From Pelagibacteraceae bacterium (GTDB lineage: Bacteria; Pseudomonadota; Alphaproteobacteria; HIMB59; GCA-002718135), in the NCBI GenBank assembly GCA_017639935.1, contig JAGFWP010000010.1:11213-75212 (forward strand): a DNA stretch of 64,000 nucleotides, in the 5' to 3' direction. The notes under the pieces were generated by a model. The model was given only the letters and a program-made list of their open reading frames with translations, did no database searches and was not told where the DNA came from. The translations under genes were made by a program, and so were the position numbers. Shown here one piece after another: positions 1,988-12,532 of this stretch; positions within the stretch are counted from its first letter, which is position 1; each line of letters begins with the position of its first letter.

Positions 1988-2191
1988 ATGAAAGACTTAA
2001 TATTAACTGATGATAGCTCCAGAGAGTACATCGTTAAGGATCCAAAGCGTTTGTATGACCACTTAATAGAATATCATGCAACGAATGAAAAAGCTGATCA
2101 TAGCGTTCATGAAGAAAACGGTTTTTATTTTACAGTTACTGAGGATTTGTTTAAAAAAGTTGAGAATTTTGTCTTAAATAATAAAATCTAA
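1988..2191 (+). CDS. hypothetical 67-aa protein
   Basis: Intact ORF directly upstream of the tRNA locus. Its last ~30 codons recur as a diverged remnant at 11075-11165 inside attR (..FVLGNNT* versus ..FVLNNKI*), which argues for a real flank gene. Confidence 0.5.
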   Translation: MKDLILTDDSSREYIVKDPKRLYDHLIEYHATNEKADHSVHEENGFYFTVTEDLFKKVENFVLNNKI

Positions 2192-2298
2192 CTCAATCAA
2201 ATATGTAATTGAATCTTAGAATTAAGACGTATATTACGCCTGTTTAGGGCCCTTAGCTCAGTTGGTTAGAGCGCTCCGCTCATAACGGAGTGGTCCGG
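2097..2298 (+). repeat. attL: left 202-bp direct repeat of the island (3' end of the 67-aa gene + intergenic region + tRNA nt 1-52)
   Basis: Aligns without gaps to 11071-11272 at a constant offset of 8974. Hand alignment gives 9 mismatches, all upstream of the tRNA part. Identity ends at ggtccgg|agtg versus ggtccgg|ggtt. Confidence 0.9.
2247..2298 (+). pseudogene. truncated tRNA(CAT) fragment: acceptor 5' strand through the start of the T stem, lacking T loop and 3' end
   Basis: 52 nt identical to 11221-11272 of the intact tRNA, followed by unrelated sequence (agtgagtaacacac...). Confidence 0.9.
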
Positions 2299-2390
2299 AG
2301 TGAGTAACACACAACAATCCTTATTTTCTCCCAATAACCTCCATCGTTTTTCCTGCACACACTTTTAATTCATGCAAATATTATACTTCA

Positions 2391-2410
2391 TTGTGACTGA
2401 AGTGTGACAG
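2391..2410 (+). promoter_or_regulatory. candidate integrase/excisionase arm-type site, left copy (TTGTGACTGAAGTGTGACAG)
   Basis: A 20-mer with an internal GTGAC...GTGAC direct repeat. It recurs in the same orientation at 11045-11064 with 2 mismatches. Both copies lie just inside the island ends. Confidence 0.35.
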
Positions 2411-2413
2411 TAA

Positions 2414-2499
2414 TTTTTTAATTGGGTCCCATTTCTGAACAAGGGTTTTTTTTACCACCCCCGCCCCCCATAATTCCGGGATTGTTGTAACATCCATAA
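2414..2499 (+). repeat. ~86-bp repeat 'A', copy 1 (T-run, AATTGGGTCCCATTTCTGAACAAGGG, T8, C-rich block ACCACCCCCGCCCCCCA, ..AACATCCATAA)
   Basis: Matches 3509-3594 at offset 1095, with 6 mismatches over the 80 nt from AATTGGG to CCATAA. Confidence 0.85.
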
Positions 2500-2512
2500 A
2501 GGGGCGTGCCGT

Positions 2513-3043
2513 TTGATGATTAATTCTCAACATTCCTCGTGGTTGGTGGTAGGATACAATGAAGTGAAGCGATACAAAGAAAAATATAAATTTAGGGACA
2601 AACTCAATGACGAGAAAGACTTTCCCAAAATAAAAAAGATTCCAAAGAATCTTGAAAAGAAGTGGGGCAAAGGAAAGTTTGTTCTACCCTCACCCTTGGA
2701 GGTTAATGCGTTGATGAAAAAAGTGCCAAAGGGGAAACTGACTACCATTAACGAACTGCGAAAAAAGCTGGCCCAAAAACATAAAACCACCACCGCTTGC
2801 CCCATAGTGACGGGTATCTTTGCCTGGATAACAGCTTTTGCGGCGGAAGAGGATGCGAGGGATGGCAAGAAACGCATAACCCCTTATTGGCGCACCCTGA
2901 AGTCCGATGGCAGGATTAATGAAAAGTATCCAGGCGGTCTTCCTTTGCAAAAAAGAATATTAACAAATGAGGGTTATAGAATTTTTTCTAAAGGAAAAAA
3001 TTATTTTGTAGAAGACTTTACCACCAAGTTAACCAAACTATAA
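2513..3043 (+). CDS. MGMT/Atl-like DNA-binding domain protein (alkyltransferase-like; no catalytic PCHR cysteine motif seen)
   Basis: VPKGKLTTINELRKKLA...PYWRTLKSDGRIN...LPLQKRILTNEGY resembles the 6-O-methylguanine methyltransferase DNA-binding fold (..P.GkvtTY.eiA...PwhRVv.sdG..). The start is uncertain: ATG 2513 or in-frame GTG 2564, the latter if repeat B1 is the promoter. Confidence 0.55.
   Translation: MMINSQHSSWLVVGYNEVKRYKEKYKFRDKLNDEKDFPKIKKIPKNLEKKWGKGKFVLPSPLEVNALMKKVPKGKLTTINELRKKLAQKHKTTTACPIVTGIFAWITAFAAEEDARDGKKRITPYWRTLKSDGRINEKYPGGLPLQKRILTNEGYRIFSKGKNYFVEDFTTKLTKL
2526..2556 (+). promoter_or_regulatory. repeat 'B', copy 1: promoter-like unit (-35 TCAACA, 17-nt G-rich spacer, extended -10 TGgTAGGAT)
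   Basis: CTCAACATTCCTCGTGGTTGGTGGTAGGATA is identical to 3060-3090 and differs at 3 positions from 38338-38368. Confidence 0.45.
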
Positions 3044-3059
3044 AATCTATTCCTTTCCC

Positions 3060-3090
3060 CTCAACATTCCTCGTGGTTGGTGGTAGGATA
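3060..3090 (+). promoter_or_regulatory. repeat 'B', copy 2 (identical to copy 1), upstream of the cupin gene
   Basis: The same 31-mer lies 49 nt upstream of ATG 3139. Confidence 0.45.
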
Positions 3091-3138
3091 ATAATAATGT
3101 AATGAAAAAAATTGAAACTACTAATAAGGAGAGACGTT

Positions 3139-3501
3139 ATGTCAGAAACAAAGATATTCCGTAAAAAAGACCTCGACCTTGAGCCTGTGAACGGCATGAA
3201 AACCATCGGTTTGGTCAATGTATCGTTTTCCGATAAACTGGGAGCCGGGATTGGCGTTTTTGAAGATTGCTCTATACCTTGGCATATAACTTATGACGAG
3301 GTCATCTACATACTTGAGGGACAGTTCACGTTACAAGTCGGTGACAAAATATTCGAAGCCGGTCCTGGAGACGTGCTATGGGTGCCACGTAATACAGATA
3401 TTGTTTATATAGCCAAAGAGCGAGTAACATTTTTCTACTCTGTACTACCTGCCGGCAATGCACCATCAACATCCAAACGTATTGATTATACTTCTATGTG
3501 A
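3139..3501 (+). CDS. cupin-domain protein (EutQ-like small cupin)
   Basis: Cupin core DEVIYILEGQFTLQVGDKIFEAGPGDVLWVPRNTDIVY. ATG 3139 is preferred over the TTG at 3112 in the track because of the SD AAGGAGA at 3128-3134. Confidence 0.75.
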   Translation: MSETKIFRKKDLDLEPVNGMKTIGLVNVSFSDKLGAGIGVFEDCSIPWHITYDEVIYILEGQFTLQVGDKIFEAGPGDVLWVPRNTDIVYIAKERVTFFYSVLPAGNAPSTSKRIDYTSM

Positions 3502-3508
3502 GGGAGTT

Positions 3509-3594
3509 TTTTTTAATTGGGTCCCATTTCTGAACAAGGGTTTTTTTTACTACCCCCACCCCCCATAATTCTGGGAATGTCTTAACATCCATAA
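3509..3594 (+). repeat. ~86-bp repeat 'A', copy 2
   Basis: See copy 1. It begins a few nt after the cupin stop codon. Confidence 0.85.
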
Positions 3595-3655
3595 TTGTGC
3601 GTTGATAATCTTCTAATATTTTGTATACGCACCCTTAAATCATAGCGAGGTATCA

Positions 3656-4285
3656 TTGAGTCGTATTTACAGCTTACAGTACCAAGCAATGAAGAAGGAC
3701 ATCGATAAATACTTCGAGGAAAACAAGGAAGAGGTTAACAAAAGTTTTCTAAATCGTGGTTGTAGGATTACTGTCAAGGTCGATAGGCTGGAGTGTTACC
3801 ATAGTAATTCCATTCCCATGAACTGGGAGGACTTCAGTAACCGATACTATGAGTCGAAGGGTAAGTTGTCTAGCGAGACGGGCATTAGCGGCATACACGG
3901 AAGGGTTACTTGGGATAACCTAATTGTGAATGCCGACTACAGCACAACGAGGGACACCTATCTTGAGACAAAAGTGGAAATTTATCTTGATGTTTACAAG
4001 AAGGAGCAGCCGCGTCTTGGTGAAGTAGGAAGTTACAGTATTTTTAATAATCTGGGTGGAGCTAAGAGAATTATTTTCCATCTGGATATACCAAAAAGTA
4101 CTTATGAGTTCCTCGATAAAGCCAAGAGCTCTTGTGACGGGCTTGAGCTCAATGTAAAAGTTGAGCCGCCGAACTTTGAGGAGGATAAATTCGTTCTTCC
4201 CATCGGGCATCAAGATGATGCCAACGGCAAGGTCTACAGGGCATCCTTCGATACTCTTCATAGCTTTGGAAAAAAAACTAACTAA
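3656..4285 (+). CDS. hypothetical 209-aa protein (TTG start)
   Basis: Long ORF with SD GAGG 5 nt upstream of the TTG, followed by a strong intrinsic terminator. I recognise no family. Confidence 0.6.
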   Translation: MSRIYSLQYQAMKKDIDKYFEENKEEVNKSFLNRGCRITVKVDRLECYHSNSIPMNWEDFSNRYYESKGKLSSETGISGIHGRVTWDNLIVNADYSTTRDTYLETKVEIYLDVYKKEQPRLGEVGSYSIFNNLGGAKRIIFHLDIPKSTYEFLDKAKSSCDGLELNVKVEPPNFEEDKFVLPIGHQDDANGKVYRASFDTLHSFGKKTN

Positions 4286-4290
4286 TATTC

Positions 4291-4314
4291 AAGGGGTCTT
4301 CACCGACCCCTTTT
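4291..4314 (+). terminator. rho-independent terminator
   Basis: AAGGGGTC-ttcacc-GACCCCTT followed by a T-run, immediately after the 209-aa ORF. Confidence 0.8.
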
Positions 4315-4426
4315 ACTTCAGCTGGGGAATAGTGTTGATAGCAAAACACACTGCATTGACGACAGATTGATAGCAGATTTATTTACAACACAATCACTCC
4401 CCAGTACTAAAGCATATAATAATATT

Positions 4427-4456
4427 TATGGTTATGATTATGATTATGATTATGGT
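4427..4456. repeat. hexanucleotide tandem repeat (TATGRT)x5
   Basis: tatggt tatgat tatgat tatgat tatggt. It abuts the stop codon of the minus-strand DUF1376 gene. Confidence 0.9.
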
Positions 4457-4836
4457 TAGTATTGCCTTGGTAATGCGTCCGCAAGCCTCTTATCCTTAAA
4501 GACTCTTTTGTCATATCTTGCATTTGCAGCCTCTCTTGCCTTCTCGCTTCTCTCTAGAGCTTTCCTCCATGTTTGCTCCAGACGTTTCTGCTTGAATGTA
4601 CCATCACTTAAGTCAAAGAGGGGCGCAATCTCCTCCTTAATTTTTCGCCATTTCCTTGGGGTTACACGCAGCAGGCGTGGTAGTATCTTATCATCATCCT
4701 TGTAGGGGCGGCAGTTGTTATTCCAAGTGTGAAAGAGGATGAGGATGTAGCACCCTTGTGCCTCCAAGGACAGATGCAGCGTATCCGCAATGTGGTCGGA
4801 GGGAAAGAAGTGCAGACAGGGTACCTTGCTGCTCAT
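4456..4836 (-). CDS. DUF1376 (YdaU-like) phage-associated protein
   Basis: FFPSDHIADTLHLSLEAQGCYILILFHTWNN...DDDKILPRLLRVTPRKWRKIKEEIAPLF...KQKRLEQ matches the DUF1376 pattern found in prophage replication modules. Confidence 0.75.
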   Translation of the reverse strand: MSSKVPCLHFFPSDHIADTLHLSLEAQGCYILILFHTWNNNCRPYKDDDKILPRLLRVTPRKWRKIKEEIAPLFDLSDGTFKQKRLEQTWRKALERSEKAREAANARYDKRVFKDKRLADALPRQY

Positions 4837-4918
4837 ATTTTAACAAATTTTTTCATATTTTTTACTTTATTTGTATTAATTAATTTTAAAATAGAACAGT
4901 TTTAGAACCTTTGCCTAA

Positions 4919-4939
4919 ACACCCTCTTAATCTTTGGGG
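4919..4939 (+). promoter_or_regulatory. 'ACCCTCTTAA' box, copy 1 (CACCCTCTTAATCTTTGGGGG)
   Basis: Shares ACCCTCTTAAnCTTT(G) with 5177-5194 and 8327-8342. No clear downstream gene. Confidence 0.3.
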
Positions 4940-5176
4940 GAAATCGGCTTGGATATCATATCGTTGACCTCTTCACATTTTTTTATCTAATTATTTTTCT
5001 TCTTATTTAAAAAATGCAATATAAATCAATAAAGCGAGAATCAGCAATTTACCATAATCAAGGTCAAATGCCGTTCCCTCGCCAAATTTTTTTTCAAAAT
5101 ATTTTTTCATCATTATTCCCTTTGCTTTAACCATAGAACTATATCCTCTACGGTGCCATATGTTAACCCAAAAATA

Positions 5177-5210
5177 ACCCTCTTAACCTTTGGGAGAACG
5201 GTGGTATAAT
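5177..5210 (+). promoter_or_regulatory. 'ACCCTCTTAA' box + extended -10 (TGgTATAAT) promoter, 7 nt before ATG 5218
   Basis: ACCCTCTTAACCTTTGGGAGAACGGTGGTATAAT-taaaaat-ATG. The -10 to ATG distance implies a leaderless or near-leaderless mRNA. Confidence 0.5.
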
Positions 5211-5217
5211 TAAAAAT

Positions 5218-6063
5218 ATGAGCAAGAAAATTTTTCTCATTACAGGTGGTACTAATGGCATTGGTTTTCAAGCTGCTCAAGAAATTGCAAAGACAAAAAA
5301 AACAATAATCATAACTGGCAAGAATGCTTTAAAAGGAAAAAATAAATTAAATGAAATTAGAAGAAATACAGGCAATGAAGATGTTCATTTTATCAATGGT
5401 GATTTGTCATCACAAATAGAAATTAAAAGCATTGCGGAATTTGTAAAGAGAAAATTTTCTAATATCGATGTACTGATAAATAATGCTGGAGCCGCTTTTT
5501 TTAAGAGAGAAGAAAGTGTTGATGGCATAGAAAAAACTTTTGCCATTAATCATTTAGCATATTTTTTGTTAACGGGTTTGCTTCTTCCGGTGATTTTGGA
5601 TTCCCATAAACCAAGGATTGTAAACGTTGCTTCATCTGTTCATAAAGGTATGGATTTAAATTTTGATGATATTGAAATGAGAAAGACATATGATGGGTAT
5701 AGAGCCTATCGTCAATCAAAGTTGTGCAACATATTGTTCACTTATTTTTTATCAAATAAACTAAAGTCAAAAGGCGCAACGGTTAACTGCTTGCATCCTG
5801 GATTTGTTAATACAGGTCTGGGCCATAATAACAGCGGTTTAGTGAAGTTTTTCTTTATGCTGTCCCAGAAACTTTTTGGCAAAAGTCCTCAGGAAGGCGC
5901 AGAAACCAGTATTTATTTGGCAATGAAGAAAGATTTAGAGGAAGTTACTGGAAAATATTTTCACAAGCATGAACCATTAACCAGCTCTGGGCAAACATAC
6001 AACCAAAACACACAGAAAAGGCTTTGGAACTTAAGTGAAAAATATACAAATTTTTCATATTAA
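5218..6063 (+). CDS. short-chain dehydrogenase/reductase (retinol-dehydrogenase-like SDR)
   Basis: ITGGTNGIG cofactor motif, NNAG, and catalytic YRQSK. Confidence 0.9.
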   Translation: MSKKIFLITGGTNGIGFQAAQEIAKTKKTIIITGKNALKGKNKLNEIRRNTGNEDVHFINGDLSSQIEIKSIAEFVKRKFSNIDVLINNAGAAFFKREESVDGIEKTFAINHLAYFLLTGLLLPVILDSHKPRIVNVASSVHKGMDLNFDDIEMRKTYDGYRAYRQSKLCNILFTYFLSNKLKSKGATVNCLHPGFVNTGLGHNNSGLVKFFFMLSQKLFGKSPQEGAETSIYLAMKKDLEEVTGKYFHKHEPLTSSGQTYNQNTQKRLWNLSEKYTNFSY

Positions 6064-6106
6064 GAATGTAAGAGACCTTTTAACTGTATAATGGCGGGAT
6101 ATTAAA

Positions 6107-6472
6107 ATGTACTATGGTTTTGGTGCCAATTTAACACTTGCAATGCACTTTGCTTTTATAGTTTTTGTTATATTTGGAGCGTTGATTCTCTTTGCATCAA
6201 AAAAAATTGCTTTTATTCATATTCCTTCTGTTATTTATGGAGCATATATTGAATTATCTCATTCTATCTGTCCATTAACATATTTAGAAAATTGGTTTTT
6301 AAAGAAGGCGGGTTTGAAAAGTTATCCAAGCAGTTTTATTGAACAATATTTAATGCCCATTGTCTATCCTGACAATCTAACTGCTGAATTACAATTTTAT
6401 TTAGGGTTTTTACTTATTTTCACTAATATTGTTATTTACGTACTGGCTATAAAATCTTTCAAGAGAAGTTAG
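6107..6472 (+). CDS. small integral membrane protein (DUF2784-like, CPLT motif)
   Basis: Several hydrophobic segments and SHSICPLTYLENW. The family assignment is from memory. Confidence 0.6.
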   Translation: MYYGFGANLTLAMHFAFIVFVIFGALILFASKKIAFIHIPSVIYGAYIELSHSICPLTYLENWFLKKAGLKSYPSSFIEQYLMPIVYPDNLTAELQFYLGFLLIFTNIVIYVLAIKSFKRS

Positions 6473-6546
6473 TGCTGCGTATTCATCTATTCATTCTTGA
6501 AACAATGGTGCTATAAAACTAATTCAGTTTTCATAAATATTATGAA

Positions 6547-7359
6547 ATGACAAAAATGTTATTAATCCTAACTTATGCCATTGGTATTTATGCACTGCTT
6601 GTCTTGTTCCTTTTCTTTTTTCAAAGGTCTTACCTCTATTTCCCCTCAAAAGAGAAAATTGACGTTTCGTATTTTATTGATAGTGGATTAAAAGAGATTG
6701 AACTCACCACATCGGATGGATTAGTTCTAAAATCTTGGTTTAAAAAACCGAGAACGCAAGATGGATATACAATCCTCATCTTTCATGGCAACGCAGGACA
6801 TGTCGGACATAGGGTTGAGAAATTTAAACGTTTCATCACTGCTGGCTATGGTTTTTTATTTCTTGAATACAGAGGTTATGGCGGCAATCCAGGCAAGCCT
6901 ACGGAGGGGGGTCTATATTATGATGCTCTGTCGGCATTGGAGTTTTTATCAAAACAACAAATATCCTCTGATAAAACTATTCTTTACGGTGAATCCTTAG
7001 GATGCGGAGTAGCAGTAAAATTGTCCTCTGAGGCTGCCTTTGCTGCCACGGTTTTAGAGGCCCCCTTTACGTCCATCGCTGACGTTGCTCAGCGTCATTT
7101 TTGGTATCTACCTGCTAAATGGTTGGTGTTAGACCGTTATGACATTCTGAGGATAATAGGAAACACTAAATCACCGCTGCTGGTGATACACGGAGAAAAA
7201 GACAACATCATTAACATATCATTAGGAAAAAAGGTATTTGATGCTGCTCCTGAACCAAAAGAGGCTTTATTTGTTCCCAATGCCGGGCACAACAATCTCT
7301 TTGAATTTAATGTTGAAGAAAAGTTATTGATTTTTTTAGAAAAACAAAAAAACTATTAA
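6547..7359 (+). CDS. alpha/beta-fold hydrolase with N-terminal membrane anchor
   Basis: Nucleophile elbow GESLGCG, IFHGNAG, HGEKDNII and GHNN, giving a Ser-Asp-His layout. Confidence 0.85.
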   Translation: MTKMLLILTYAIGIYALLVLFLFFFQRSYLYFPSKEKIDVSYFIDSGLKEIELTTSDGLVLKSWFKKPRTQDGYTILIFHGNAGHVGHRVEKFKRFITAGYGFLFLEYRGYGGNPGKPTEGGLYYDALSALEFLSKQQISSDKTILYGESLGCGVAVKLSSEAAFAATVLEAPFTSIADVAQRHFWYLPAKWLVLDRYDILRIIGNTKSPLLVIHGEKDNIINISLGKKVFDAAPEPKEALFVPNAGHNNLFEFNVEEKLLIFLEKQKNY

Positions 7360-7593
7360 TTACACTTTAATCTAATTTTCCAACTAATTACTCCTCTTCA
7401 TAATTTTACCTTAATTACATTATGATTATGCTTGATTCAGTTTTTAAGAATCAATTGTTAATATGGCATTACTTGGGCGTATCTTACTTTTCATATTACT
7501 CCTCCTGTTGATAGTCACCGCTGGTACGTCCTTGGATGCCTAGAAAAACTTTTATTTATAGATTAAGTATATTCATAATGATAAAGAAAACTT

Positions 7594-7740
7594 ATGGCTG
7601 CTAAAAAGAAGAAAACCAAAAAAAAAGCTACTAGTAAGATTAATACTACCAAAAAAGAAGAAATAGTAGCTCAGTGCATCAATGATATCATTGATTGTAT
7701 GATAAAAATATTGGAGAAATTGAAGCCTTACAAAAAATAA
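7594..7740 (+). CDS. candidate 48-aa lysine-rich small protein (not in the ORF track)
   Basis: ATG..TAA ORF (MAAKKKKTKKKATSKINTTKKEEIVAQCINDIIDCMIKILEKLKPYKK) followed directly by a stem-loop terminator. The listed antisense ORF 7573-7758 is low-complexity. Confidence 0.4.
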   Translation: MAAKKKKTKKKATSKINTTKKEEIVAQCINDIIDCMIKILEKLKPYKK

Positions 7741-7745
7741 GAAAA

Positions 7746-7775
7746 ACCCCAATAACATATCGTGTTGATTGGGGT
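7746..7775 (+). terminator. stem-loop, probable intrinsic terminator
   Basis: ACCCCAAT-14 nt-ATTGGGGT followed by atattt. Confidence 0.5.
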
Positions 7776-8002
7776 ATATTTCGGCTCATCACCTAATGCT
7801 AGGACTGTGAAACAGTTCTGCTAAATTGTTTAAAATAATGTTGGTTGTGGCCACCACCCATCAGACAACTGGCGGTATCAATAATACCCTCCTATCTTCA
7901 CTAGTAAGCGTATGCTTTATATAATTAATCGCAAGCATTATTTTGAAAAAAATTTCCATGGAATCTGCGACAGTTAATGTTTTTTAAATAATTCCATCCA
8001 CA

Positions 8003-8218
8003 CTAAAAGAGTAGCATAACTATGACAAAGAGTAAAATGACTAGCAGAACTATTGTCGGATTGATGGTTTTATTGTCACGAATGTAAACTTTCTTGCAAA
8101 TCATACATTCAACCTTTTCAATCTTTCCTGAAGGTCCAAATCCAATTTTCACATCCACCAATCTGGTTCTGGGATGATAATCAAAATAGCAGCAAATTAT
8201 TAATAATTTTTCTAACAT
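8003..8218 (-). CDS. hypothetical 71-aa protein with C-terminal transmembrane tail
   Basis: ORF only, with a hydrophobic C-terminus (PTIVLLVILLFVIVMLLF). No recognisable family. Confidence 0.3.
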   Translation of the reverse strand: MLEKLLIICCYFDYHPRTRLVDVKIGFGPSGKIEKVECMICKKVYIRDNKTINPTIVLLVILLFVIVMLLF

Positions 8219-8326
8219 TCTCTTTTATCATTATATATTTCATGAAATATTAAAGAAGGAAAACTGGTTTAAGCAACATAATACAATAATATTAACAAGT
8301 TTGTGGATTGCTTATACCTAAAAAAA

Positions 8327-8360
8327 ACCCTCTTAAACTTTTGTTTAATGGTGGTATGAT
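8327..8360 (+). promoter_or_regulatory. 'ACCCTCTTAA' box + extended -10 (TGgTATGAT) promoter, 5 nt before ATG 8366
   Basis: ACCCTCTTAAACTTTTGTTTAATGGTGGTATGAT-aaatt-ATG has the same architecture as 5177-5210. Confidence 0.5.
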
Positions 8361-8365
8361 AAATT

Positions 8366-8890
8366 ATGCGATGTTTTATTGGCATTGATTTATCTATGGA
8401 TGCAATTAAGGAAATTCAAAAAATACAAGAAAAACTTAAGCCTAACTTCAATGGAAGGTTAACCTCTGGTGAAAATTTACATCTGACTTTAAAGTTCTTA
8501 GGTGAAATAGAAAGTGGGGTGATAAACGATGTTAAAAAAAGATTATCCTCCATCAAGCATCATCCGTTTGAATTGACACTAAAGGATGTTGGTGTTTTTT
8601 CTCAAAAGTTTATCAAAATAATTTGGGTGAAGGTCTCTAACGTACTCTTGCAGCCATTGGTTGATAATTGTTTGAATGATATTTTTGAATCAGAATACAG
8701 GTTTATGGGCCACGTTACTATCGCTCGTGTTAAAAGTCTTGCAGATAAAAATTCTTTTCTCCGGTTAATCAATGAAATGAGTGTAAATGAAATATCATTT
8801 ATGGTCAGGGATTTTTATTTGAAAGAATCCATTCTTACTAAAGACGGGCCGATTTATAAGGACATCGACAGATATAAGCTATCATCATAA
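8366..8890 (+). CDS. 2H phosphoesterase superfamily protein (LigT/ThpR-like 2'-5' RNA ligase / cyclic phosphodiesterase)
   Basis: Two H-x-T-x motifs at the expected spacing: HLTLKF and HVTIAR. Confidence 0.85.
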   Translation: MRCFIGIDLSMDAIKEIQKIQEKLKPNFNGRLTSGENLHLTLKFLGEIESGVINDVKKRLSSIKHHPFELTLKDVGVFSQKFIKIIWVKVSNVLLQPLVDNCLNDIFESEYRFMGHVTIARVKSLADKNSFLRLINEMSVNEISFMVRDFYLKESILTKDGPIYKDIDRYKLSS

Positions 8891-8910
8891 ACTAACTCAA
8901 TATTTTCATT

Positions 8911-9636
8911 TTAATTTTTTGTACTAATAAATTTCTTTTCACCTGTCTTAGTATTAATAATTAAGCAAGAGAGAATTCCTGTGTAGAATGCCCCAGTATC
9001 TAAATTTATTCGGTTAGCTAAATTTTCTATTTTTGGTTGAGGAGTATGACCATGTACAATGATTTTTTCAAACAGTTTTGTATTATCAAGAAACTTGCTT
9101 TTTCGTTGCCATATCAATGTATTTTTATCTTGCTTATTCAAAGGGACATCAGGGTCAATGCCTGCGTGAACAAAGAAATAATCACCCCATTTGTAAGATA
9201 AAGTGAGATTATGAAAAAATTTAAGATGGTTTTTTGGAATGTTGTTGACCAATTCACCACGTATCGTTTCTTTGCTTTTAGTTTCATTGTTAAAAAATAC
9301 CGTGTCTTTTATTCCGTAACTATTTAATGTTTCATCACCGCCGTTTAACATCCAAAGATACAAACTATCTGGGACGTTATTGATGAAATCGAGCATCATC
9401 TGCTCATGGTTTCCCAAAAGAAATATTTGTTGAAAATTATCAGGTTGAAAATCTAAAAGTGCTTGAATTGTTTCCTTAATCTTTGGCCCTCTATCAATAT
9501 AATCACCCAAATATACAAGTAGTTTGTTTCCGCTCGTATTATTGGACTTATCTAGAATTTTTTTGTGTATTTGAGCAAGCAAAATATGACAGCCATGTAT
9601 GTCTCCAACAACAAATATCTGGGAATAATTATTCAC
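8911..9636 (-). CDS. PPP-family metallophosphatase (lambda-phosphatase / PrpA / ApaH-like Ser/Thr phosphatase)
   Basis: GDIHGC, GDYIDRGP, GNHE and VHGHT motifs. Confidence 0.9.
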   Translation of the reverse strand: MNNYSQIFVVGDIHGCHILLAQIHKKILDKSNNTSGNKLLVYLGDYIDRGPKIKETIQALLDFQPDNFQQIFLLGNHEQMMLDFINNVPDSLYLWMLNGGDETLNSYGIKDTVFFNNETKSKETIRGELVNNIPKNHLKFFHNLTLSYKWGDYFFVHAGIDPDVPLNKQDKNTLIWQRKSKFLDNTKLFEKIIVHGHTPQPKIENLANRINLDTGAFYTGILSCLIINTKTGEKKFISTKN

Positions 9637-9688
9637 CTTTCAATATATTTATTGATGGATTGGTAAAAATAAATAAGGTCATCATTGG

Positions 9689-10087
9689 TCATTCCCATAC
9701 CAGTTCACCAATGTTATTATTATTAAATTCCGAGCAGGTTCTGCTTACAGAAAAAATTCTTCCCTCTCTGTCAAATTTAATCTCTTCAATGTTCTTTGAA
9801 TCATCTGAGATAACCCAATACCCCAGAAAATTATTTTTCACGTCATACCAGGAAAAAGTATGAATGGTTTTTTTAAACTTATTCTTTTTTGTCTCATAGT
9901 TTGATAATTTGTACCGGGAGGAATCATAATTGTTTCGAATGGCAATTTTATTGTCAAAGTCAAAGACAATGTAGGTTGCGGACAGTTCGCACTTTATCCT
10001 GCCTGAAAAACGAAAATCCTCTGCTGCATCAATTGAATATGACAAAAGAAAAGATGCTGCAATAACGACTAAAGCCAAGCTTCTCAT
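9689..10087 (-). CDS. secreted hypothetical protein (132 aa)
   Basis: Signal peptide MRSLALVVIAASFLLSYSIDAAED. A 4-nt start/stop overlap with the integrase gene suggests co-translation. Confidence 0.6.
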   Translation of the reverse strand: MRSLALVVIAASFLLSYSIDAAEDFRFSGRIKCELSATYIVFDFDNKIAIRNNYDSSRYKLSNYETKKNKFKKTIHTFSWYDVKNNFLGYWVISDDSKNIEEIKFDREGRIFSVSRTCSEFNNNNIGELVWE

Positions 10088-11031
10088 AGCTTTTTCACTA
10101 TATCCTCTGCCTTGAGATGTGTGTAGCGAAAAAGCATTCGCACATCCTTATGTCCAGATATTAAGGTTACCTCTGGAATACTTAAGCCTTTCTCAAAGAG
10201 CCGTGAGATAGCCTCGTGGCGTAAATCATGGAAGTGCAGGTCTTTGATATTTCCTTTTTTCTTCAACCTGTCCCAAGCAAGCCTCACTGCATTGGCAGAC
10301 ATGGGGAAGGGGAGTTGCGTGTTCTCTAGAATATACAAAGCTCTTTTAGTAAGAGGTATTGTGCGTGGATGACCGTTCTTGGTTTTTGGAATTAATAAAG
10401 TCTGTCCCTTGATGTGTTCCGGTTTGATGTTTAGAATTTCACCACGCCTCATCGCTGTTTCAATGGCCACTTCAATGATGTGTCTTAGTGTTTGTTGAGG
10501 GTAGTTTCCCTTAACCAGAAAGTTGTATTCGTATTCCGTTAATCTTCTTTCTCTTCTATTGTTAAGTTTAGGTTTTTGAATACTCTTAATGGGATTAGGA
10601 ATATTAAAGCCCCATTCCTTATTTGCTATAGAATACAAGTGTTGCACAACACAAAGCTCTCTTAATAACGTTGCCGGCTTAACTTTCTGCAATCTTTTAT
10701 CTCGATATTTTGCAAAATATTCAGATGTTATGTGCGATACTGGTTTGTTCACGAAACCTTCTCTCATAAAAGCTTTGAGAATTATTGTTTCATTAAACCC
10801 AGCTCGTTTCTTTGGGAGAATCTCATTTATGTAGCGATTGATGAGCTGTCTAAGGGAATATTTTTTACACTTGTTTTTGAGAACCAAGAAACCATCATCA
10901 ATTTTAGTTTCTTCTTCACGAGCCCATTTTGTAGCTGATTCTTTGGTGCGAAATGTTTGTGTTATTAAAGGGCAATCCCTTCGCCTAACTTGAGCCTGCC
11001 ATTTATTATTTCTTCTGCGGATTGATGCCAT
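10084..11031 (-). CDS. int: tyrosine recombinase / phage-type integrase
   Basis: C-terminal catalytic region AMRRGEIL...HDLRHEAISRL...ISGHKDVRMLFRYTHL (R..HxxR..Y). It lies adjacent to attR. Confidence 0.93.
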   Translation of the reverse strand: MASIRRRNNKWQAQVRRRDCPLITQTFRTKESATKWAREEETKIDDGFLVLKNKCKKYSLRQLINRYINEILPKKRAGFNETIILKAFMREGFVNKPVSHITSEYFAKYRDKRLQKVKPATLLRELCVVQHLYSIANKEWGFNIPNPIKSIQKPKLNNRRERRLTEYEYNFLVKGNYPQQTLRHIIEVAIETAMRRGEILNIKPEHIKGQTLLIPKTKNGHPRTIPLTKRALYILENTQLPFPMSANAVRLAWDRLKKKGNIKDLHFHDLRHEAISRLFEKGLSIPEVTLISGHKDVRMLFRYTHLKAEDIVKKL

Positions 11032-11044
11032 TCTACACTCCTTG

Positions 11045-11064
11045 TTGTGACAAAAGTGTGACAG
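11045..11064 (+). promoter_or_regulatory. candidate arm-type site, right copy (TTGTGACAAAAGTGTGACAG)
   Basis: Matches 2391-2410 at 18 of 20 positions. It lies between the integrase start and attR. Confidence 0.35.
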
Positions 11065-11070
11065 GGCGCA

Positions 11071-11272
11071 ATCACAGCGTTCATGAAGAAAACGGTTTTT
11101 ATTTTACAGTTACTGAGGATTTGTTTAAAAAAGTTGAGAATTTTGTCTTAGGTAATAACACTTAACTCAATCAAATATGTAATTGAAACTTAGAATTAAG
11201 ATGTATATTAAGCCTGTTTAGGGCCCTTAGCTCAGTTGGTTAGAGCGCTCCGCTCATAACGGAGTGGTCCGG
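11071..11272 (+). repeat. attR: right 202-bp direct repeat (island-borne copy fused to the native tRNA 3' end)
   Basis: See attL. It carries a diverged remnant of the 67-aa gene C-terminus. Confidence 0.9.
11183..11209 (+). promoter_or_regulatory. candidate tRNA promoter (TTGAAA ... TATATT) inside the duplicated segment
   Basis: The -35/-10-like hexamers end ~11 nt before tRNA position 1. The left copy has TTGAAT...TATATT. Confidence 0.4.
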
Positions 11273-11297
11273 GGTTCAAATCCCTGAGGGCCCACCA
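11221..11297 (+). tRNA. tRNA with CAT anticodon (elongator Met, or Ile2/lysidine type), CCA encoded
   Basis: A full cloverleaf can be drawn: GGGCCCT/AGGGCCC acceptor, GCTC/GAGC D stem, CTCCG-CTCATAA-CGGAG anticodon arm, CGGGG-TTCAAAT-CCCTG T arm. The acceptor stem (C4, C5) and overall sequence resemble E. coli ileX as I recall it, so Ile2 is plausible. Confidence 0.9.
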
Positions 11298-11365: not shown

Positions 11366-12532
11366 ATGAATAATCGTAATTTATGGCTGTTAACCTTAAG
11401 TCAAGCATTTGGTTTTAGCCTCGCTACCGTTAATGTTTTCTTAAGTGGAATTATCGGTTCCCGACTTATTTCGATAAAAGCCCTTTCAACCTTACCGCCC
11501 GCATTATTCATCATTGGAACAGCTTCTTGCGCCATTTTTGCATCCTATATAATGAGCAAGTTTGGTCGGAAATTAGGTTTTGTAAGCGCTTCAATCGGCA
11601 GCTCCCTCTCCGCTCTTCTCGCGGCTTATTCAATCAGCATTGAAAGTTTTACACTTTTTTGTATTTCCTGTTTGCTGATGGGGATGGGTTTAGCCTTTGT
11701 TCATCAATATCGATTTGCCGCCAGTGAAAGTGTTGAAAAAGAAAAAATTCCAAAAGCAGTTTCAATGATTTTACTGGGTGGAATTTTATCCGCCCTGATA
11801 GGGCCTAATATCGCAAATTTAACCAAAGATTTATTTTTTGACAAACTTTATGTGGGCTCATATCTGTCATTAGCTTTCCTGGTCCTTCTGCCTGCTGTTT
11901 TATTGACTTTCTTGAAAAGTATGAATGAATCTGAAAGTGACAGATCTTTTCAGGGAAGAAGTTATATGGAATTAATTTTACAACCAAGATTCTTACAAGC
12001 AATTACCGCCACCGCTTTTGCCTATGCGATTATGGCCTTTCTGATGACCGCAACGCCCATAAGCATGCACGTTAATGAAAAGTTTAATTTAGATGAAACA
12101 AAATCTGTGATCCAATGGCATATCGTTGCCATGTTTCTACCCTCGCTTATCACTGGGAAGTTAATTCAAAGGCTGGGACACAGTATGATCATGTACTTTG
12201 GGATAACTTTTTTTGCAATCTGTATTTTTTTAAGTTATTTTTTCGATCAGACATTCATGAATTATGCGATTGCATTAGCATTCCTTGGTTTTGGTTGGAA
12301 TTTTCTGTTTGTTTCCGGAACGAGCTTACTGGTCATCAGCTATAGGTCGGAAGAGAAATATAAAGCCCAGGCATATAATGATTTTACCGTATTTAGCGCA
12401 CAAGGAATGGCCGCTCTCTCAGCGGGATTATTTCTTAACATGACAAGCTGGCAAGCTATAAATCTGATGTGCCTTCCTTTTTTAGCGATCATAGCGCTGA
12501 CTATTTGGAGAGCGGATAGAATGGAAACTTAA
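11366..12532 (+). CDS. MFS transporter (12 predicted TM segments)
   Basis: Hydrophobic repeat structure throughout. ATG 11366 is preferred over GTG 11354 because of the SD GAGGTGAGA upstream. Confidence 0.8.
   Translation: MNNRNLWLLTLSQAFGFSLATVNVFLSGIIGSRLISIKALSTLPPALFIIGTASCAIFASYIMSKFGRKLGFVSASIGSSLSALLAAYSISIESFTLFCISCLLMGMGLAFVHQYRFAASESVEKEKIPKAVSMILLGGILSALIGPNIANLTKDLFFDKLYVGSYLSLAFLVLLPAVLLTFLKSMNESESDRSFQGRSYMELILQPRFLQAITATAFAYAIMAFLMTATPISMHVNEKFNLDETKSVIQWHIVAMFLPSLITGKLIQRLGHSMIMYFGITFFAICIFLSYFFDQTFMNYAIALAFLGFGWNFLFVSGTSLLVISYRSEEKYKAQAYNDFTVFSAQGMAALSAGLFLNMTSWQAINLMCLPFLAIIALTIWRADRMET

What the first reader, a model, noticed from the sequence alone, without database searches (positions are those of the whole stretch)
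2097..11297. Integrase island that rebuilds a tRNA(CAU) from the 5' side, with a 202-bp att repeat carrying the tRNA promoter and 5' two-thirds
Direct repeats 2097-2298 and 11071-11272 align gap-free at offset 8974. I count 9 mismatches, all upstream of the tRNA, and the 52 tRNA nucleotides are identical. The left copy is the native end of the 67-aa gene plus the intergenic region plus tRNA nt 1-52, then diverges at the start of the T stem. The right copy is fused to the T arm and acceptor 3' end, giving the only intact tRNA (11221-11297). It also carries a diverged remnant of the neighbouring gene's C-terminus. The tyrosine integrase abuts attR. Most tRNA-targeting elements duplicate the tRNA 3' end. 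This element instead sits upstream of the functional tRNA, so it must bring its own promoter (TTGAAA...TATATT, 11183-11209) and 5' portion, which would explain the unusually long att. The mismatch pattern suggests the island-borne copy came from a related but different strain, so the element may circulate within the lineage.
Basis: partly seen in the sequence, partly recalled or inferred. Interest (0 to 1): 0.62.

Follow-up and report, generated by a model that had tools for sequence, protein, structure and literature searches.

The report
Integrase island upstream of tRNA-Ile2
An 8.8-kb gene island carrying its own integrase sits in front of the essential tRNA-Ile2 gene of an ocean SAR11 bacterium; some cells in the same population have it and some do not, and it is an unusual mirror-image version of an otherwise well-known kind of mobile element.

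Summary
Copies 2097-2298 and 11071-11272 align without gaps, with 9 mismatches, and tRNA nt 1-52 are identical. They bracket an 8,772-bp island whose tyrosine integrase (10084-11031, minus strand) abuts the only intact tRNA.

The host is a Pelagibacteraceae (SAR11) population. The tRNA is tRNA-Ile2(CAU), not tRNA-Met.

Empty sites (67-aa gene, intact tRNA, MFS gene) occur in at least six independent metagenomes, so the island is a real gain/loss polymorphism.

The integrase belongs to a SAR11-specific clade of a widespread tRNA-targeting family. Two TGTGAC-N5-TGTGAC arm-type sites flank the anticodon arm, which is the inferred crossover site. Seven close relatives supply the tRNA 3' part or a whole tRNA; only this element carries host upstream DNA plus the tRNA 5' part on its integrase side. 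That stretches one arm-to-core distance from 68-69 nt to 196 nt.

The right-copy allele is the one found at every empty site, and the left-copy allele is seen only beside the island. Alleles are shuffled by recombination.

No excised circle, no excisionase and no verified promoter were found.

5'-complementing attP sites are already known in pelagiphages. This is a new variant of a known kind, of moderate interest.

The parts
1988..2191 (+). 67-aa gene (left flank); its last 31 codons lie inside the left repeat copy
   Evidence: ORF. The exact protein is found on 82 contigs of Pelagibacteraceae metagenomes and MAGs. No Pfam or NCBIfam match.
2097..2298 (+). Left repeat copy (attL): end of the 67-aa gene, intergenic region and tRNA nt 1-52. 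The robust block is 2102-2298, and it extends to 2301 apart from the nt-53 change.
2247..2301 (+). Dead 5' fragment of tRNA-Ile2 (nt 1-55, with A at nt 53)
   Evidence: Identical to 11221-11272. Rfam 24.8 bits, below threshold. ARAGORN makes no call here.
2279..2285 (+). Anticodon loop inside the fragment; inferred crossover (overlap) region of attL
   Evidence: Inference from relatives. Their tRNA homology starts at nt 17-30, and this element's homology ends at nt 55. The distal arm lies 108 nt away, as in L100 and L101.
2392..2408 (+). Integrase-distal arm-type site, TGTGACTGAAGTGTGAC
   Evidence: The motif TGTGAC-N5-TGTGAC occurs twice in 64 kb against 0.08 expected. Homologous sites sit at the same distance in L100 and L101.
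2299..5165 (.). Variable, modular left part of the island (GC 39.8%). It holds a 175-aa ORF, a cupin, a 209-aa ORF and a truncated DUF1376/primosomal remnant (4456-4836, minus strand). The modules are separated by linker repeats: 2414-2507/3509-3602, 2526-2556/3060-3090, 4921-4942/5166-5213.
   Evidence: Breakpoints between contigs fall on the linkers. Pfam and PHROG results. GC.
5166..10083 (.). Constant cargo: SDR oxidoreductase (5218-6063), DUF2784 (6107-6472), alpha/beta hydrolase (6547-7359), RNA 2',3'-cyclic phosphodiesterase (8366-8890), metallophosphatase (8911-9636, minus strand), and a 132-aa ORF with a hydrophobic N-terminus suggesting a secreted protein (by eye, not tested; 9689-10087, minus strand)
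   Evidence: Present in all island-bearing contigs that reach it. Families.
10084..11031 (-). Tyrosine integrase, 315 aa
   Evidence: PF00589 at 4.5e-24 and Int_N; phrog_1 integrase. R195/R196, H268, R271, H294 and Y303 are invariant in 25 homologues. Closest solved structures are integrase 5c6k/5dor and XerD.
11046..11062 (+). Integrase-proximal arm-type site, TGTGACAAAAGTGTGAC, starting 14 nt from the integrase start codon
   Evidence: The same motif sits in the same place in L260, L070, L072, L100, L101, L262 and L263.
11071..11272 (+). Right repeat copy (attR): remnant of the 67-aa gene's 3' end, the intergenic region with a promoter candidate (TTGAAA-17-TATTAA, 11183-11211, by eye), and tRNA nt 1-52
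   Evidence: The promoter was not confirmed by the scan.
11221..11297 (+). Intact tRNA-Ile2 (anticodon CAU, presumably modified to lysidine); anticodon loop at 11253-11259
   Evidence: ARAGORN and Rfam at 72 bits. The best E. coli match is the CAU tRNA-Ile next to mug, with C4-G69 and C5-G68 shared. The dnaG-rpoD neighbourhood is shared.
11366..12532 (+). MFS transporter gene (right flank)

Best explanation
This is an 8.8-kb integrative genomic island of a SAR11 (Pelagibacteraceae) population, inserted in the tRNA-Ile2(CAU) gene that follows dnaG-rpoD.

Its tyrosine integrase belongs to a SAR11-specific clade. In that clade the attP consists of the integrase gene, an arm-type site (TGTGAC-N5-TGTGAC), a core that is the tRNA anticodon stem-loop, and a second arm-type site about 108 nt beyond the core.

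In relatives, the element supplies the tRNA 3' part or a whole tRNA. This element instead carries about 200 bp of host chromosome on the integrase side of the core. That block holds the last 31 codons of the 67-aa gene, the intergenic (promoter) region and the tRNA 5' part. After recombination at the anticodon arm, the working tRNA is therefore the integrase-proximal copy, and a dead 5' fragment (nt 1-55) remains at the far end.

The block was most likely picked up from a host chromosome, either by aberrant excision or by repair through an intermediate with two whole tRNA copies. The 3' end of the distal copy was lost later, in the fast-changing far end of the island.

The block also gives about 200 bp of homology. 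Through it the island is lost, and its alleles are exchanged, by ordinary homologous recombination.

Shown: the repeat, the island's presence/absence polymorphism, the integrase family and its conserved site geometry, the tRNA identity, and the modular far end.

Inferred: crossover at the anticodon loop, the capture event, promoter function, and present-day activity of the integrase.
For: - Repeat and single intact tRNA.
- Integrase domain and invariant catalytic residues.
- Empty sites: the 67-aa gene, intact tRNA and MFS gene are contiguous in L010/L266, L268, L269, L270, L272 and L283, from different samples, with flanks 99.6-99.9% identical to the window.
- Classical relatives: about 30 distant relatives (33-48% identity) sit about 100 nt after the 3' end of an intact tRNA. 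Their distal repeats run from nt 11-37 to the tRNA 3' end.
- SAR11 relatives are flipped. L260 (80% identity) is at this same locus, and L070/L072 (76%), L100, L101, L262/L263 and L264 follow the same pattern. In L260, L070/L072, L100 and L262/L263 the integrase-proximal copy is a tRNA 3' fragment starting at nt 17-30; in L264 it also starts in the anticodon stem, and in L101 it is a whole tRNA.
- Together with this element's limit of nt 55, that brackets the crossover to nt 30-55, which is the anticodon arm. There, AGAGCGCTCCG / CTCATAA / CGGAGTGGTCC forms an imperfect inverted repeat.
- The arm motif occurs exactly twice in 64 kb, against 0.08 expected.
- Arm-to-anticodon distances are 68-69 nt (proximal) in 7 of 7 relatives. 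The distal distance is 108-109 nt in L100, L101 and this window.
- In outgroup lineages the native locus resembles the left copy (AA, A/T, T, C). The right-copy allele is uniquely derived.
- The element family circulates: L068 shows the same left junction in a lineage with about 92% identity, and L260 has other cargo at the same site.
- Precedent: capture of flanking host DNA and accretion next to an anchoring tRNA are part of the published tycheposon model. 5'-complementing attP sites are known in pelagiphages.
Against: - The proximal arm is 196 nt from the anticodon instead of 68-69 nt. Integrase-mediated recombination of this particular element may therefore be impaired.
- No attP-type junction was found in IMG/VR or in any fetched contig.
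- No excisionase-like ORF was found.
- Allele distribution. The left-copy (NNKI) allele is found only next to island DNA, on 10 unique contigs, and never at an empty site or at attR. The right-copy (GNNT) allele is at 12 of 12 attR loci (11 fetched contigs plus this window), all 8 empty-type sites and 4 left junctions. Under simple integrase-mediated insertion into an NNKI host, one would expect NNKI empty sites, either naive or produced by precise excision.
- The proposed tRNA promoter fails the consensus scan. Promoter-like hits in the region are no more frequent than in shuffled sequence.
- The crossover position is inferred only from relatives.
Confidence: 0.6

Rival explanations
1. The structure is the same, but insertion happened by host homologous recombination in the left part of the captured block (2102-2176, inside the end of the 67-aa gene). 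On this view the functional tRNA, its promoter and its 5' part are native. The element-borne copy is the left one (-70 to nt 55), which completes the 67-aa gene. The island therefore rebuilds the protein gene's end rather than the tRNA. The integrase is bypassed, possibly disabled by the stretched arm spacing.
For: - The right-copy allele equals the allele of every empty site, down to the polymorphic positions -96 and -42.
- The left-copy allele is never seen without the island (0 of 10 against 8 of 12, Fisher p = 0.0017).
- Flanks of empty and occupied contigs are 99.6-99.9% identical. All 8 differences cluster in 60 bp of the block.
- The left-copy allele looks like ordinary alleles of other lineages, as expected if the block was captured elsewhere.
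- The proximal arm spacing is non-canonical.
Against: - The distal arm sits exactly 108 nt from the anticodon in attL, as in L100 and L101. That points to a canonical integrase product at the anticodon.
- All relatives recombine in the anticodon arm.
- Left junctions with the GNNT allele also exist (L267, L271, L274, L276).
- The same pattern can arise from one clonal NNKI host lineage plus recombination between attR and empty sites.
- L068 keeps lineage-specific changes down to -83, so a single common crossover point would have to lie in a narrow stretch, -83 to -71.
Confidence: 0.25
2. The block was duplicated in place and the island is now immobile. A conventional 3'-complementing element, like L260, was already integrated. 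A repair or gene-conversion event then copied the native upstream region and tRNA 5' part onto the integrase-proximal 3' fragment. The distal copy later lost nt 56-77. Present-day presence/absence reflects only deletion and transfer by homologous recombination.
For: - L260 shows a 3'-complementing relative at this very locus, and its integrase-proximal copy is a decayed full-length tRNA.
- L101 shows whole-tRNA duplication.
- Only 6 nt separate the arm site from the block, which looks like an illegitimate junction.
- No circle and no excisionase were found.
- L265 shows a recombination tract that starts at the block boundary.
Against: - The same left junction occurs in a lineage with about 92% identity (L068).
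- All four block haplotypes are spread over attL, attR and empty sites. That fits repeated excision and integration or very frequent exchange.
- The integrase is intact and conserved, with a 98%-identity cluster of 47 members.
Confidence: 0.1
3. The repeat, or the empty site, is an assembly artefact: a duplicated or collapsed repeat in metagenome assembly.
For: - Many contigs break at or near the repeat (L276, L277, L279-L282).
- The first empty site found rested on a single scaffold.
Against: - Both junctions lie on single contigs from at least three independent assemblies.
- Empty sites come from at least six samples.
- By inference from the contig names, L269-L272 are k=127 assemblies. The diagnostic markers lie closer together than 127 nt (T at -146 and GG at -70; -11 and the nt-56 junction), so each combination must exist in real reads.
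Confidence: 0.02
4. The island is an integron-like cassette platform. The integrase would insert and excise single gene cassettes at the 31-nt linker (2526-2556 / 3060-3090) next to attP.
For: - Co-oriented single-gene modules are each preceded by the same 31-nt sequence.
- L006 and L008 carry an extra methyltransferase module flanked by two linker copies. L003 and L015 carry an extra 109-aa module.
- In the circular form this region would lie next to attP and the integrase.
Against: - The integrase is not IntI-like (57.9 bits against a cutoff of 220).
- The linker shows no convincing similarity to the anticodon-arm core (by eye).
- Linkers of three different kinds, and breakpoints not always exactly at them (L012, L013), fit recombination at conserved boundary sequences better.
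- The linkers are absent from viral contigs and from other islands.
Confidence: 0.03

Closest known systems
Classical tRNA-targeting tyrosine-integrase genomic islands and prophages (anticodon-loop sublocation, as classified by Williams 2002, cited from my own knowledge); here represented by loci L102-L150
   Same: - The same integrase family (33-48% identity).
- An arm-type DNA-binding N-terminus.
- A tRNA-derived direct repeat bounding the island.
- A short repeat in L104, L117 and L122 placed like the window's arm sites: one copy just upstream of the integrase and one 115-135 nt inside the far end.
   Different: In the classical elements the integrase follows the 3' end of the intact tRNA and the element supplies the tRNA 3' part. 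Here the integrase diverges from the tRNA 5' end. The element-side homology is the 5' part plus 150 nt of upstream host DNA.
SAR11-clade relatives of this integrase (L260, L070/L072, L100, L101, L262/L263, L264)
   Same: - 60-80% identical integrase.
- The same TGTGAC-N5-TGTGAC arm site starting about 11-14 nt from the integrase start codon.
- The same orientation, with the integrase on the 5' side of the tRNA core.
- L260 is at the same tRNA-Ile2 locus.
- The distal arm is 108-109 nt from the anticodon.
   Different: The relatives keep 68-69 nt between the proximal arm and the anticodon. They leave a displaced 3' fragment next to the integrase, with the intact tRNA at the far end. This element has 196 nt there, the intact tRNA next to the integrase, and a 5' fragment at the far end.
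HTVC019P-type temperate pelagiphages (Zhao et al., bioRxiv 10.1101/410191)
   Same: They integrate into SAR11 tRNA genes. In several of them the core overlaps the tRNA 5' end, and the phage supplies the 5' part of the rebuilt tRNA.
   Different: - They are phages, with core sequences of 11-46 bp and attP between the integrase and RNA polymerase genes.
- This island has no phage structural genes.
- Its block is 197-202 bp and includes part of a neighbouring protein gene.
- Its integrase is at most 39% identical to any deposited phage integrase, and at most 43% to any in IMG/VR.
Tycheposons and tRNA-anchored additive islands of marine streamlined bacteria (Hackl et al., bioRxiv 10.1101/2020.12.28.424599), and integrase-associated mobile regions of Pelagibacter (Biller et al. 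2025, PMC11876622)
   Same: - Tyrosine-recombinase elements integrating at tRNAs, including one CAU tRNA.
- Partial tRNA repeats.
- Accretion of degenerate elements and of flanking DNA from other hosts.
- Highest variability at one end of the island.
   Different: - The tycheposon hallmark replication genes are absent here, apart from a truncated primosomal remnant.
- Membership of the integrase in the tycheposon clade could not be tested.
- Here the most variable end is the integrase-distal one, and the island lies 5' of the tRNA.
Aberrant excision that captures flanking host DNA (lambda gal/bio-type specialised transducing genomes; from my own knowledge)
   Same: An illegitimate junction (11070/11071, only 6 nt from the arm site) joins element DNA to a contiguous piece of host chromosome that ends at the att core.
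   Different: The capture is inferred, not observed. The captured piece here has become part of the functional attachment region and restores an essential tRNA.
SAR11 flexible genomic islands with partial tRNA repeats (Molina-Pardines et al. 2025, PMC11796062)
   Same: Islands bounded by a tRNA and a partial repeat of that tRNA. One island (GI-35) has an integrase.
   Different: The paper states that canonical mobile elements are essentially absent. It does not describe the integrase clade, the arm sites or a 5'-side arrangement, as far as the searched text shows.

Membership tests
tRNA-targeting tyrosine-integrase integrative island | Tyrosine recombinase with an intact catalytic set | tested here: met
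   PF00589 at 4.5e-24. R195/R196, H268, R271, H294 and Y303 are invariant in 25 homologues. phrog_1 integrase. PDB integrase 5c6k at 3.9e-9.
tRNA-targeting tyrosine-integrase integrative island | Island bounded by direct repeats that contain part of the target tRNA | tested here: met
   2097-2298 / 11071-11272, with tRNA nt 1-52 identical.
tRNA-targeting tyrosine-integrase integrative island | Empty target site in close relatives | tested here: met
   L010/L266, L268, L269, L270, L272 and L283 have the 67-aa gene, intact tRNA and MFS gene contiguous.
tRNA-targeting tyrosine-integrase integrative island | Crossover inside the tRNA (anticodon loop flanked by the symmetric stem) | tested here: inconclusive
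   Bracketed to nt 30-55 by comparing this element with L070 and L260. Arm distances to the anticodon are conserved. The allele pattern in this population is equally compatible with a crossover at 2102-2176.
tRNA-targeting tyrosine-integrase integrative island | Usual arrangement: the element supplies the tRNA 3' part, and the integrase lies next to the 3' end of the intact tRNA | tested here: not met
   The distal copy is a 5' fragment, and the integrase diverges from the tRNA 5' end. About 30 distant relatives do show the usual arrangement.
tRNA-targeting tyrosine-integrase integrative island | Arm-type integrase binding sites on both sides of the core | tested here: met
   The motif occurs twice in 64 kb against 0.08 expected. 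It is conserved in position in relatives. Binding itself is not testable here.
tRNA-targeting tyrosine-integrase integrative island | Excised circular form (attP junction) | tested here: inconclusive
   Not found in IMG/VR or in the 284 fetched loci.
tRNA-targeting tyrosine-integrase integrative island | Excisionase / recombination directionality factor | tested here: not met
   No Pfam or PHROG match of that kind among the island ORFs. Small unannotated ORFs remain.
Integron | IntI-type integrase | tested here: not met
   The NCBIfam XerA/integron-integrase model scores 57.9 bits against a cutoff of 220.
Integron | Cassettes separated by attC-type recombination sites adjacent to attI | tested here: inconclusive
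   Co-oriented modules are separated by identical 31-nt linkers, and module insertions are flanked by linker copies. No attC-like structure was tested. Rfam finds nothing there.
Prophage / HTVC019P-type pelagiphage | Phage structural and replication genes, and a phage-type integrase | tested here: not met
   Only a truncated primosomal remnant is present. The integrase is at most 39% identical to any of 50,697 phage records, and at most 43% to any in IMG/VR.
Tycheposon | Deep-branching tycheposon tyrosine recombinase plus a replication module (primase/helicase) next to the anchoring tRNA | not testable with these tools
   No reference tycheposon integrases were available. No primase or helicase is present in the island.
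Integrative conjugative or mobilisable element | Relaxase, oriT or type IV secretion genes | tested here: not met
   None among the island ORFs.
tRNA-Ile2 (lysidine-modified CAU tRNA) | CAU anticodon with Ile2-type rather than Met-type body (C4-G69 and C5-G68; not an initiator) | tested here: met
   The best E. coli match is the annotated CAU tRNA-Ile next to mug. Acceptor positions 4-7, the D arm, the anticodon loop and the T loop are shared. That these pairs are TilS determinants is from my own knowledge (Ikeuchi et al. 2005). The modification itself is not testable here.

The most novel reading that the evidence does not exclude
The captured 200-bp host block has turned a site-specific element into a homology-anchored island. 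In this SAR11 population it would be inserted, lost and re-assorted mainly by the host's own homologous recombination rather than by its integrase. Its integrase-distal, linker-flanked single-gene modules would be swapped like cassettes. That would be a distinct route of gene flux in an organism long regarded as nearly free of mobile elements.
Probability: 0.2. Interest if true: 0.65.

Novelty: new variant of a known kind. Interest (0 to 1): 0.42.

Why it matters
SAR11 is the most abundant bacterial group in the ocean and is usually described as lacking canonical mobile elements. This locus documents a SAR11-specific integrase clade with definable site architecture: an arm motif, fixed spacing and an anticodon-arm core. 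It shows a clear gain/loss polymorphism in natural populations. Relatives of the integrase carry defence-type cargo.

The mirror-image arrangement shows how a tRNA-targeting element can switch which half of an essential single-copy tRNA it restores. It does so by capturing the host promoter and 5' part. The locus also gives a concrete example of captured host DNA becoming part of an attachment region.

The practical value is modest. It offers a recognisable signature for finding such islands in SAR11 genomes, and a test case for how site-specific and homologous recombination interact in island turnover.

Tried and rejected
- Assembly duplication: rejected. Both junctions lie on single contigs from several assemblies, and empty sites come from at least six samples.
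- Prophage: rejected. There are no phage genes except a truncated primosomal remnant, and the integrase is distant from all phage integrases.
- Integron: the integrase is not IntI-like. The linker-flanked modules are noted but not explained.
- Known RNA in the linkers: Rfam finds only the tRNA and its fragment.
- Excised circle: not found in IMG/VR or in the fetched loci.
- Linkers in viral contigs: none.
Hits are no more frequent than in shuffled sequence.
- Deciding which repeat copy is native from alleles: tried three ways (empty-site comparison, outgroup alignment, population tally). The answers conflict because the alleles are shuffled.
I reached it indirectly through a homologue search and cluster listing.
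- The L265 mosaic tract starts at the block boundary. Both main models predict that, so it does not discriminate between them.

Full report
**1. The observation**

The repeat is real and is as described. The repeat finder reports a single 205-nt direct repeat at 2097-2301 / 11071-11275, at offset 8974. My own count gives 9 mismatches within 2097-2298, all upstream of the tRNA, and 52 identical tRNA nucleotides.

ARAGORN finds one tRNA in the whole window, at 11221-11297 with anticodon CAT. Rfam scores it at 72 bits and the left fragment at 24.8 bits, below threshold.

The first four bases plus the mismatch at 2101 may be a chance match, so the robust block is 2102-2298, 197 nt with 8 mismatches. 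The A at tRNA nt 53 (2299) is a private change. Other contigs have G there, so the ancestral identity ran to nt 55, the T-stem/T-loop border.

The island between the copies is 8,772 bp.

**2. Organism and content**

Integrase homologues and the 67-aa protein are named Pelagibacteraceae by their sources. The left flank is dnaG-rpoD, then a metallo-beta-lactamase-fold gene (MBL), then the 67-aa gene. The right flank is an MFS transporter gene followed by an ABC transporter.

The island encodes:
- a 315-aa tyrosine integrase (PF00589; catalytic Arg, His-x-x-Arg, His and Tyr invariant among 25 homologues);
- ordinary metabolic-looking cargo: SDR, DUF2784, alpha/beta hydrolase, RNA 2',3'-cyclic phosphodiesterase and a metallophosphatase;
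- a truncated phage-type primosomal remnant.

It has no excisionase, relaxase, phage structural genes or replication module.

The left 2.9 kb has 39.8% GC. The rest of the island has 33.6%, and the flanks 34.2%.

**3. The island is a gain/loss polymorphism**

Looking up the flanking proteins in public assemblies gave contigs with the full island (L001/L019, L002, L011). It also gave contigs in which the 67-aa gene, an intact tRNA and the MFS gene are contiguous. These empty sites are L010/L266, L268, L269, L270, L272 and L283. They come from different samples, and their flanks are 99.6-99.9% identical to the window.

By inference from their contig names, several of these are k=127 assemblies. 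The diagnostic markers lie closer together than 127 nt, so the junction combinations must exist in real reads.

**4. tRNA identity**

The best match in 5,426 E. coli genomes is the tRNA annotated tRNA-Ile that lies next to mug. It has a CAU anticodon, so it is ileX. The two tRNAs share acceptor positions 4-7 (including C4 and C5), the D arm, the anticodon loop, the variable region and the T loop. The differences in the stems are paired.

From my own knowledge, ileX lies in E. coli's dnaG-rpoD neighbourhood, so both tRNAs would sit downstream of dnaG-rpoD.

So the target is tRNA-Ile2, usually a single-copy essential gene. That explains why any element inserting there must restore it.

**5. The integrase family**

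A scan of reference genomes with an alignment of homologues returned 80 loci.

In the distant relatives (33-48% identity; many Alpha-, Beta- and Gammaproteobacteria), the integrase follows the 3' end of an intact tRNA by about 100 nt, in the same direction. The distal repeat runs from nt 11-37 to the tRNA 3' end, or covers the whole tRNA. This is the classical arrangement.

In the SAR11 clade (60-80% identity) the polarity is reversed: the integrase diverges from the tRNA 5' side. This holds for L260 (80% identity, at this very locus, with different cargo), L070/L072 (76%), L100, L101, L262/L263 and L264. In L260, L070/L072, L100 and L262/L263 the integrase-proximal copy is a displaced 3' fragment that starts at nt 17-30. 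In L264 it also starts in the anticodon stem, and in L101 it is a whole tRNA. The intact tRNA is at the far end, next to native upstream DNA.

Two relatives, L044 and L261 (66-67% identity), use the classical polarity at the same tRNA, with a different arm motif.

No close relative exists among 50,697 phage records (at most 39% identity) or in IMG/VR (at most 43%).

**6. Site architecture**

The motif TGTGAC-N5-TGTGAC occurs exactly twice in the 64-kb window, against 0.08 expected. One copy starts 14 nt from the integrase start codon (11046-11062). The other lies 93 nt inside the left junction (2392-2408).

The same motif sits in the same place next to the integrase in all seven SAR11 relatives except L264, where it is degenerate. 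A second copy sits near the far end in L100 and L101.

Measured in the same way across elements:
- The proximal arm lies 68-69 nt from the anticodon-loop centre in 7 of 7 relatives, across two different target tRNAs.
- The distal arm lies 108-109 nt from it in L100, L101 and this window.
- In this window the proximal distance is 196 nt.

The homology in relatives begins at nt 17-30, and here it ends at nt 55. The overlap is the anticodon arm, which forms an imperfect 10-11-bp inverted repeat around the 7-nt loop.

I therefore infer that the family's crossover is in the anticodon loop. On that reading the far side of this element's attP is canonical, and about 128 extra nucleotides have been inserted on the integrase side. 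Those extra nucleotides are the host-derived block.

**7. How the arrangement probably arose (inference)**

Relatives that lack an upstream block always keep the working tRNA at the end that retains the native promoter. For the integrase-proximal copy to become the working one, it needed a promoter.

The simplest path has three steps. First, an ancestor had a whole tRNA in attP, as in L101. Second, it captured the 3' end of the 67-aa gene and the intergenic region by aberrant excision or repair; the junction lies only 6 nt from the arm site. Third, the now redundant distal copy lost nt 56-77 in the rapidly changing far end.

Capture of flanking host DNA is part of the published model for tRNA-anchored islands in marine bacteria.

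**8. Which copy is native? Unresolved**

The evidence conflicts.

- Every empty site carries the right-copy allele (GG at -70/-69, C at -62, A at -34, A at -11; the protein ends GNNT). This includes its polymorphic positions -96 and -42.
- The tally over unique contigs, with the window counted separately, is as follows:

| Copy and allele | What follows it | Count |
|---|---|---|
| 67-aa gene side, NNKI allele | island | 10 |
| 67-aa gene side, GNNT allele | island | 4 |
| 67-aa gene side, GNNT allele | intact tRNA | 8 |
| 67-aa gene side, NNKI allele | intact tRNA | 0 |
| integrase side, GNNT allele | intact tRNA | 12 of 12 (11 contigs plus the window) |

- The association of NNKI with the island is significant (Fisher p = 0.0017, or 0.011 with the stricter set of empty sites).
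- In all other lineages, however, the native locus has the left-copy states. The right-copy allele is uniquely derived, and two of its changes bring the -35 and -10 boxes closer to consensus.
- All four GNNT haplotypes occur at attR, at empty sites and at GNNT-type left junctions. The block is therefore being exchanged freely.
- L265 shows a recombination tract that begins at the block boundary, in a divergent background.

Two models remain:
- (a) Integrase-mediated insertion at the anticodon into an NNKI-type host. The element's block would have been captured from the co-occurring GNNT population.
- (b) Insertion by homologous recombination in the left part of the block. The NNKI segment would then be element-borne, and the working tRNA fully native.

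I favour (a) because of the family-wide site geometry, at about 0.6 against 0.25.

**9. The far end is modular**

All island contigs share 5166-11070. Between 2299 and 5165 they differ by whole single-gene modules, and the breakpoints fall at short conserved linkers.
- The linkers are a 94-nt pair (2414-2507/3509-3602), an identical 31-nt pair (2526-2556/3060-3090) and a 22-48-nt set (4921-4942/5166-5213).
- L006 and L008 carry an extra methyltransferase module flanked by two copies of the 31-nt linker.
- L003 and L015 carry an extra 109-aa module.
- L267 and L271 carry other modules (HTH/HIT; HSP20/cytochrome c).

The linkers are private to this island family.

The second 94-nt copy is preceded by a degenerate version of the arm site (by eye). 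That suggests remnants of older element ends. I did not resolve whether this is boundary-sequence recombination, tandem accretion or something cassette-like.

**10. What is known, and the verdict**

- Pelagiphages of the HTVC019P type already show attP sites that supply the 5' part of SAR11 tRNAs.
- Partial tRNA repeats bound several SAR11 islands, and one island has an integrase.
- Hundreds of tyrosine-recombinase-associated mobile regions near tRNAs have been reported for Pelagibacter.
- Tycheposons provide the general model.

What I did not find described is:
- this integrase clade's reversed polarity, arm motif and fixed spacing;
- an element whose attachment region includes the promoter, the tRNA 5' part and the end of a neighbouring protein gene.

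The finding is real and largely correctly read. It is a new variant of a known kind, of moderate interest.

Still not shown: integrase activity on this element, an excised circle, the crossover point and the promoter.

Noticed in passing
window 2414-2556, 3060-3090, 3509-3602, 4921-4942, 5166-5213; also L003, L005, L006, L008, L013, L015, L016, L018, L267, L271: The integrase-distal 2.9 kb consists of co-oriented single-gene modules separated by short conserved linkers. Contigs differ by whole modules. Two insertions are flanked by duplicated linker copies: a methyltransferase in L006/L008 and a 109-aa ORF in L003/L015. The 31-nt linker pair is 100% identical.
   Followed up: partly
window 3486-3510 compared with 2383-2413: The second copy of the 94-nt linker is preceded by TATACTTCTATGTGAGGGAG. 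This resembles the distal arm region TATACTTCATTGTGACTGAAGTGTGACAG with one half-site missing. It may be the relic of an older element end, pointing to tandem accretion.
   Followed up: no
L044 (tRNA at 4576-4652, integrase from 4753); L278 and L067 downstream of the tRNA: The 3' side of the same tRNA-Ile2 gene is also a hotspot. A 66%-identical integrase sits about 100 nt downstream in the classical orientation in another SAR11 lineage. Other lineages have unrelated genes (a 726-aa ORF, a radical SAM gene) in place of the MFS gene.
   Followed up: partly
L262/L263, L264, L261: Relatives of this integrase in SAR11 genomes carry defence-type cargo. Examples are a DndB-family gene next to a 778-aa ORF, a type III restriction-modification pair (N6_N4_Mtase and ResIII), and a 2,253-aa LRR protein with a T5orf172 gene.
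   Followed up: no
L262 9231-9284 and 9861-9914, and the sequence just beyond the proximal fragment: Two identical tRNA-Gly 3' fragments lie 630 nt apart. A second arm-like motif of different sequence (GCGGGACACTAGTGGGACAG) lies nearby. This looks like the stump of another element with a different arm specificity, integrated in tandem.
   Followed up: no
L265 (whole locus): This contig is a mosaic. The 5' part of its 67-aa gene and the region beyond +1311 are divergent. From -142 to +1311 (block, tRNA and MFS gene) it is identical to one attR haplotype of the island-bearing population. That indicates a homologous-recombination import whose left end coincides with the block boundary.
   Followed up: partly
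L012 1-1757, joined to window coordinate 3122: In one contig the island is joined on the left to unrelated genes (nadA and a pilin-like N_methyl protein) instead of the 67-aa gene and tRNA fragment. This is either a rearrangement or a chimeric assembly.
   Followed up: no
window about 14600-16000; L010, L011, L014-L018: The ABC-transporter permease region downstream of the MFS gene differs between otherwise near-identical contigs. Contigs differ in the number and size of the permease genes, and some carry a segment only 77% identical to window 15178-15954. This is a second, unrelated structural polymorphism.
   Followed up: no
window 2160-2187 compared with 11134-11161; 11129-11101 (minus strand): The left (NNKI-type) copy contains a promoter-like TTGAGA-16-TAAAAT inside the end of the 67-aa gene. 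The GG/C changes of the right copy destroy it. A minus-strand TTTAAA-17-TAAAAT inside the block points toward the integrase and could be its promoter. Both are consensus matches only.
   Followed up: no
L260 9862-9939 and 15209-15285: At the same locus, neither copy of the tRNA in the 80%-identity relative looks perfect. The proximal copy has a decayed 5' end. The distal copy has an altered 3' acceptor end (GGGCCGTAAACCA). The contig is a low-coverage long-read assembly, so this may be sequencing error.
   Followed up: no
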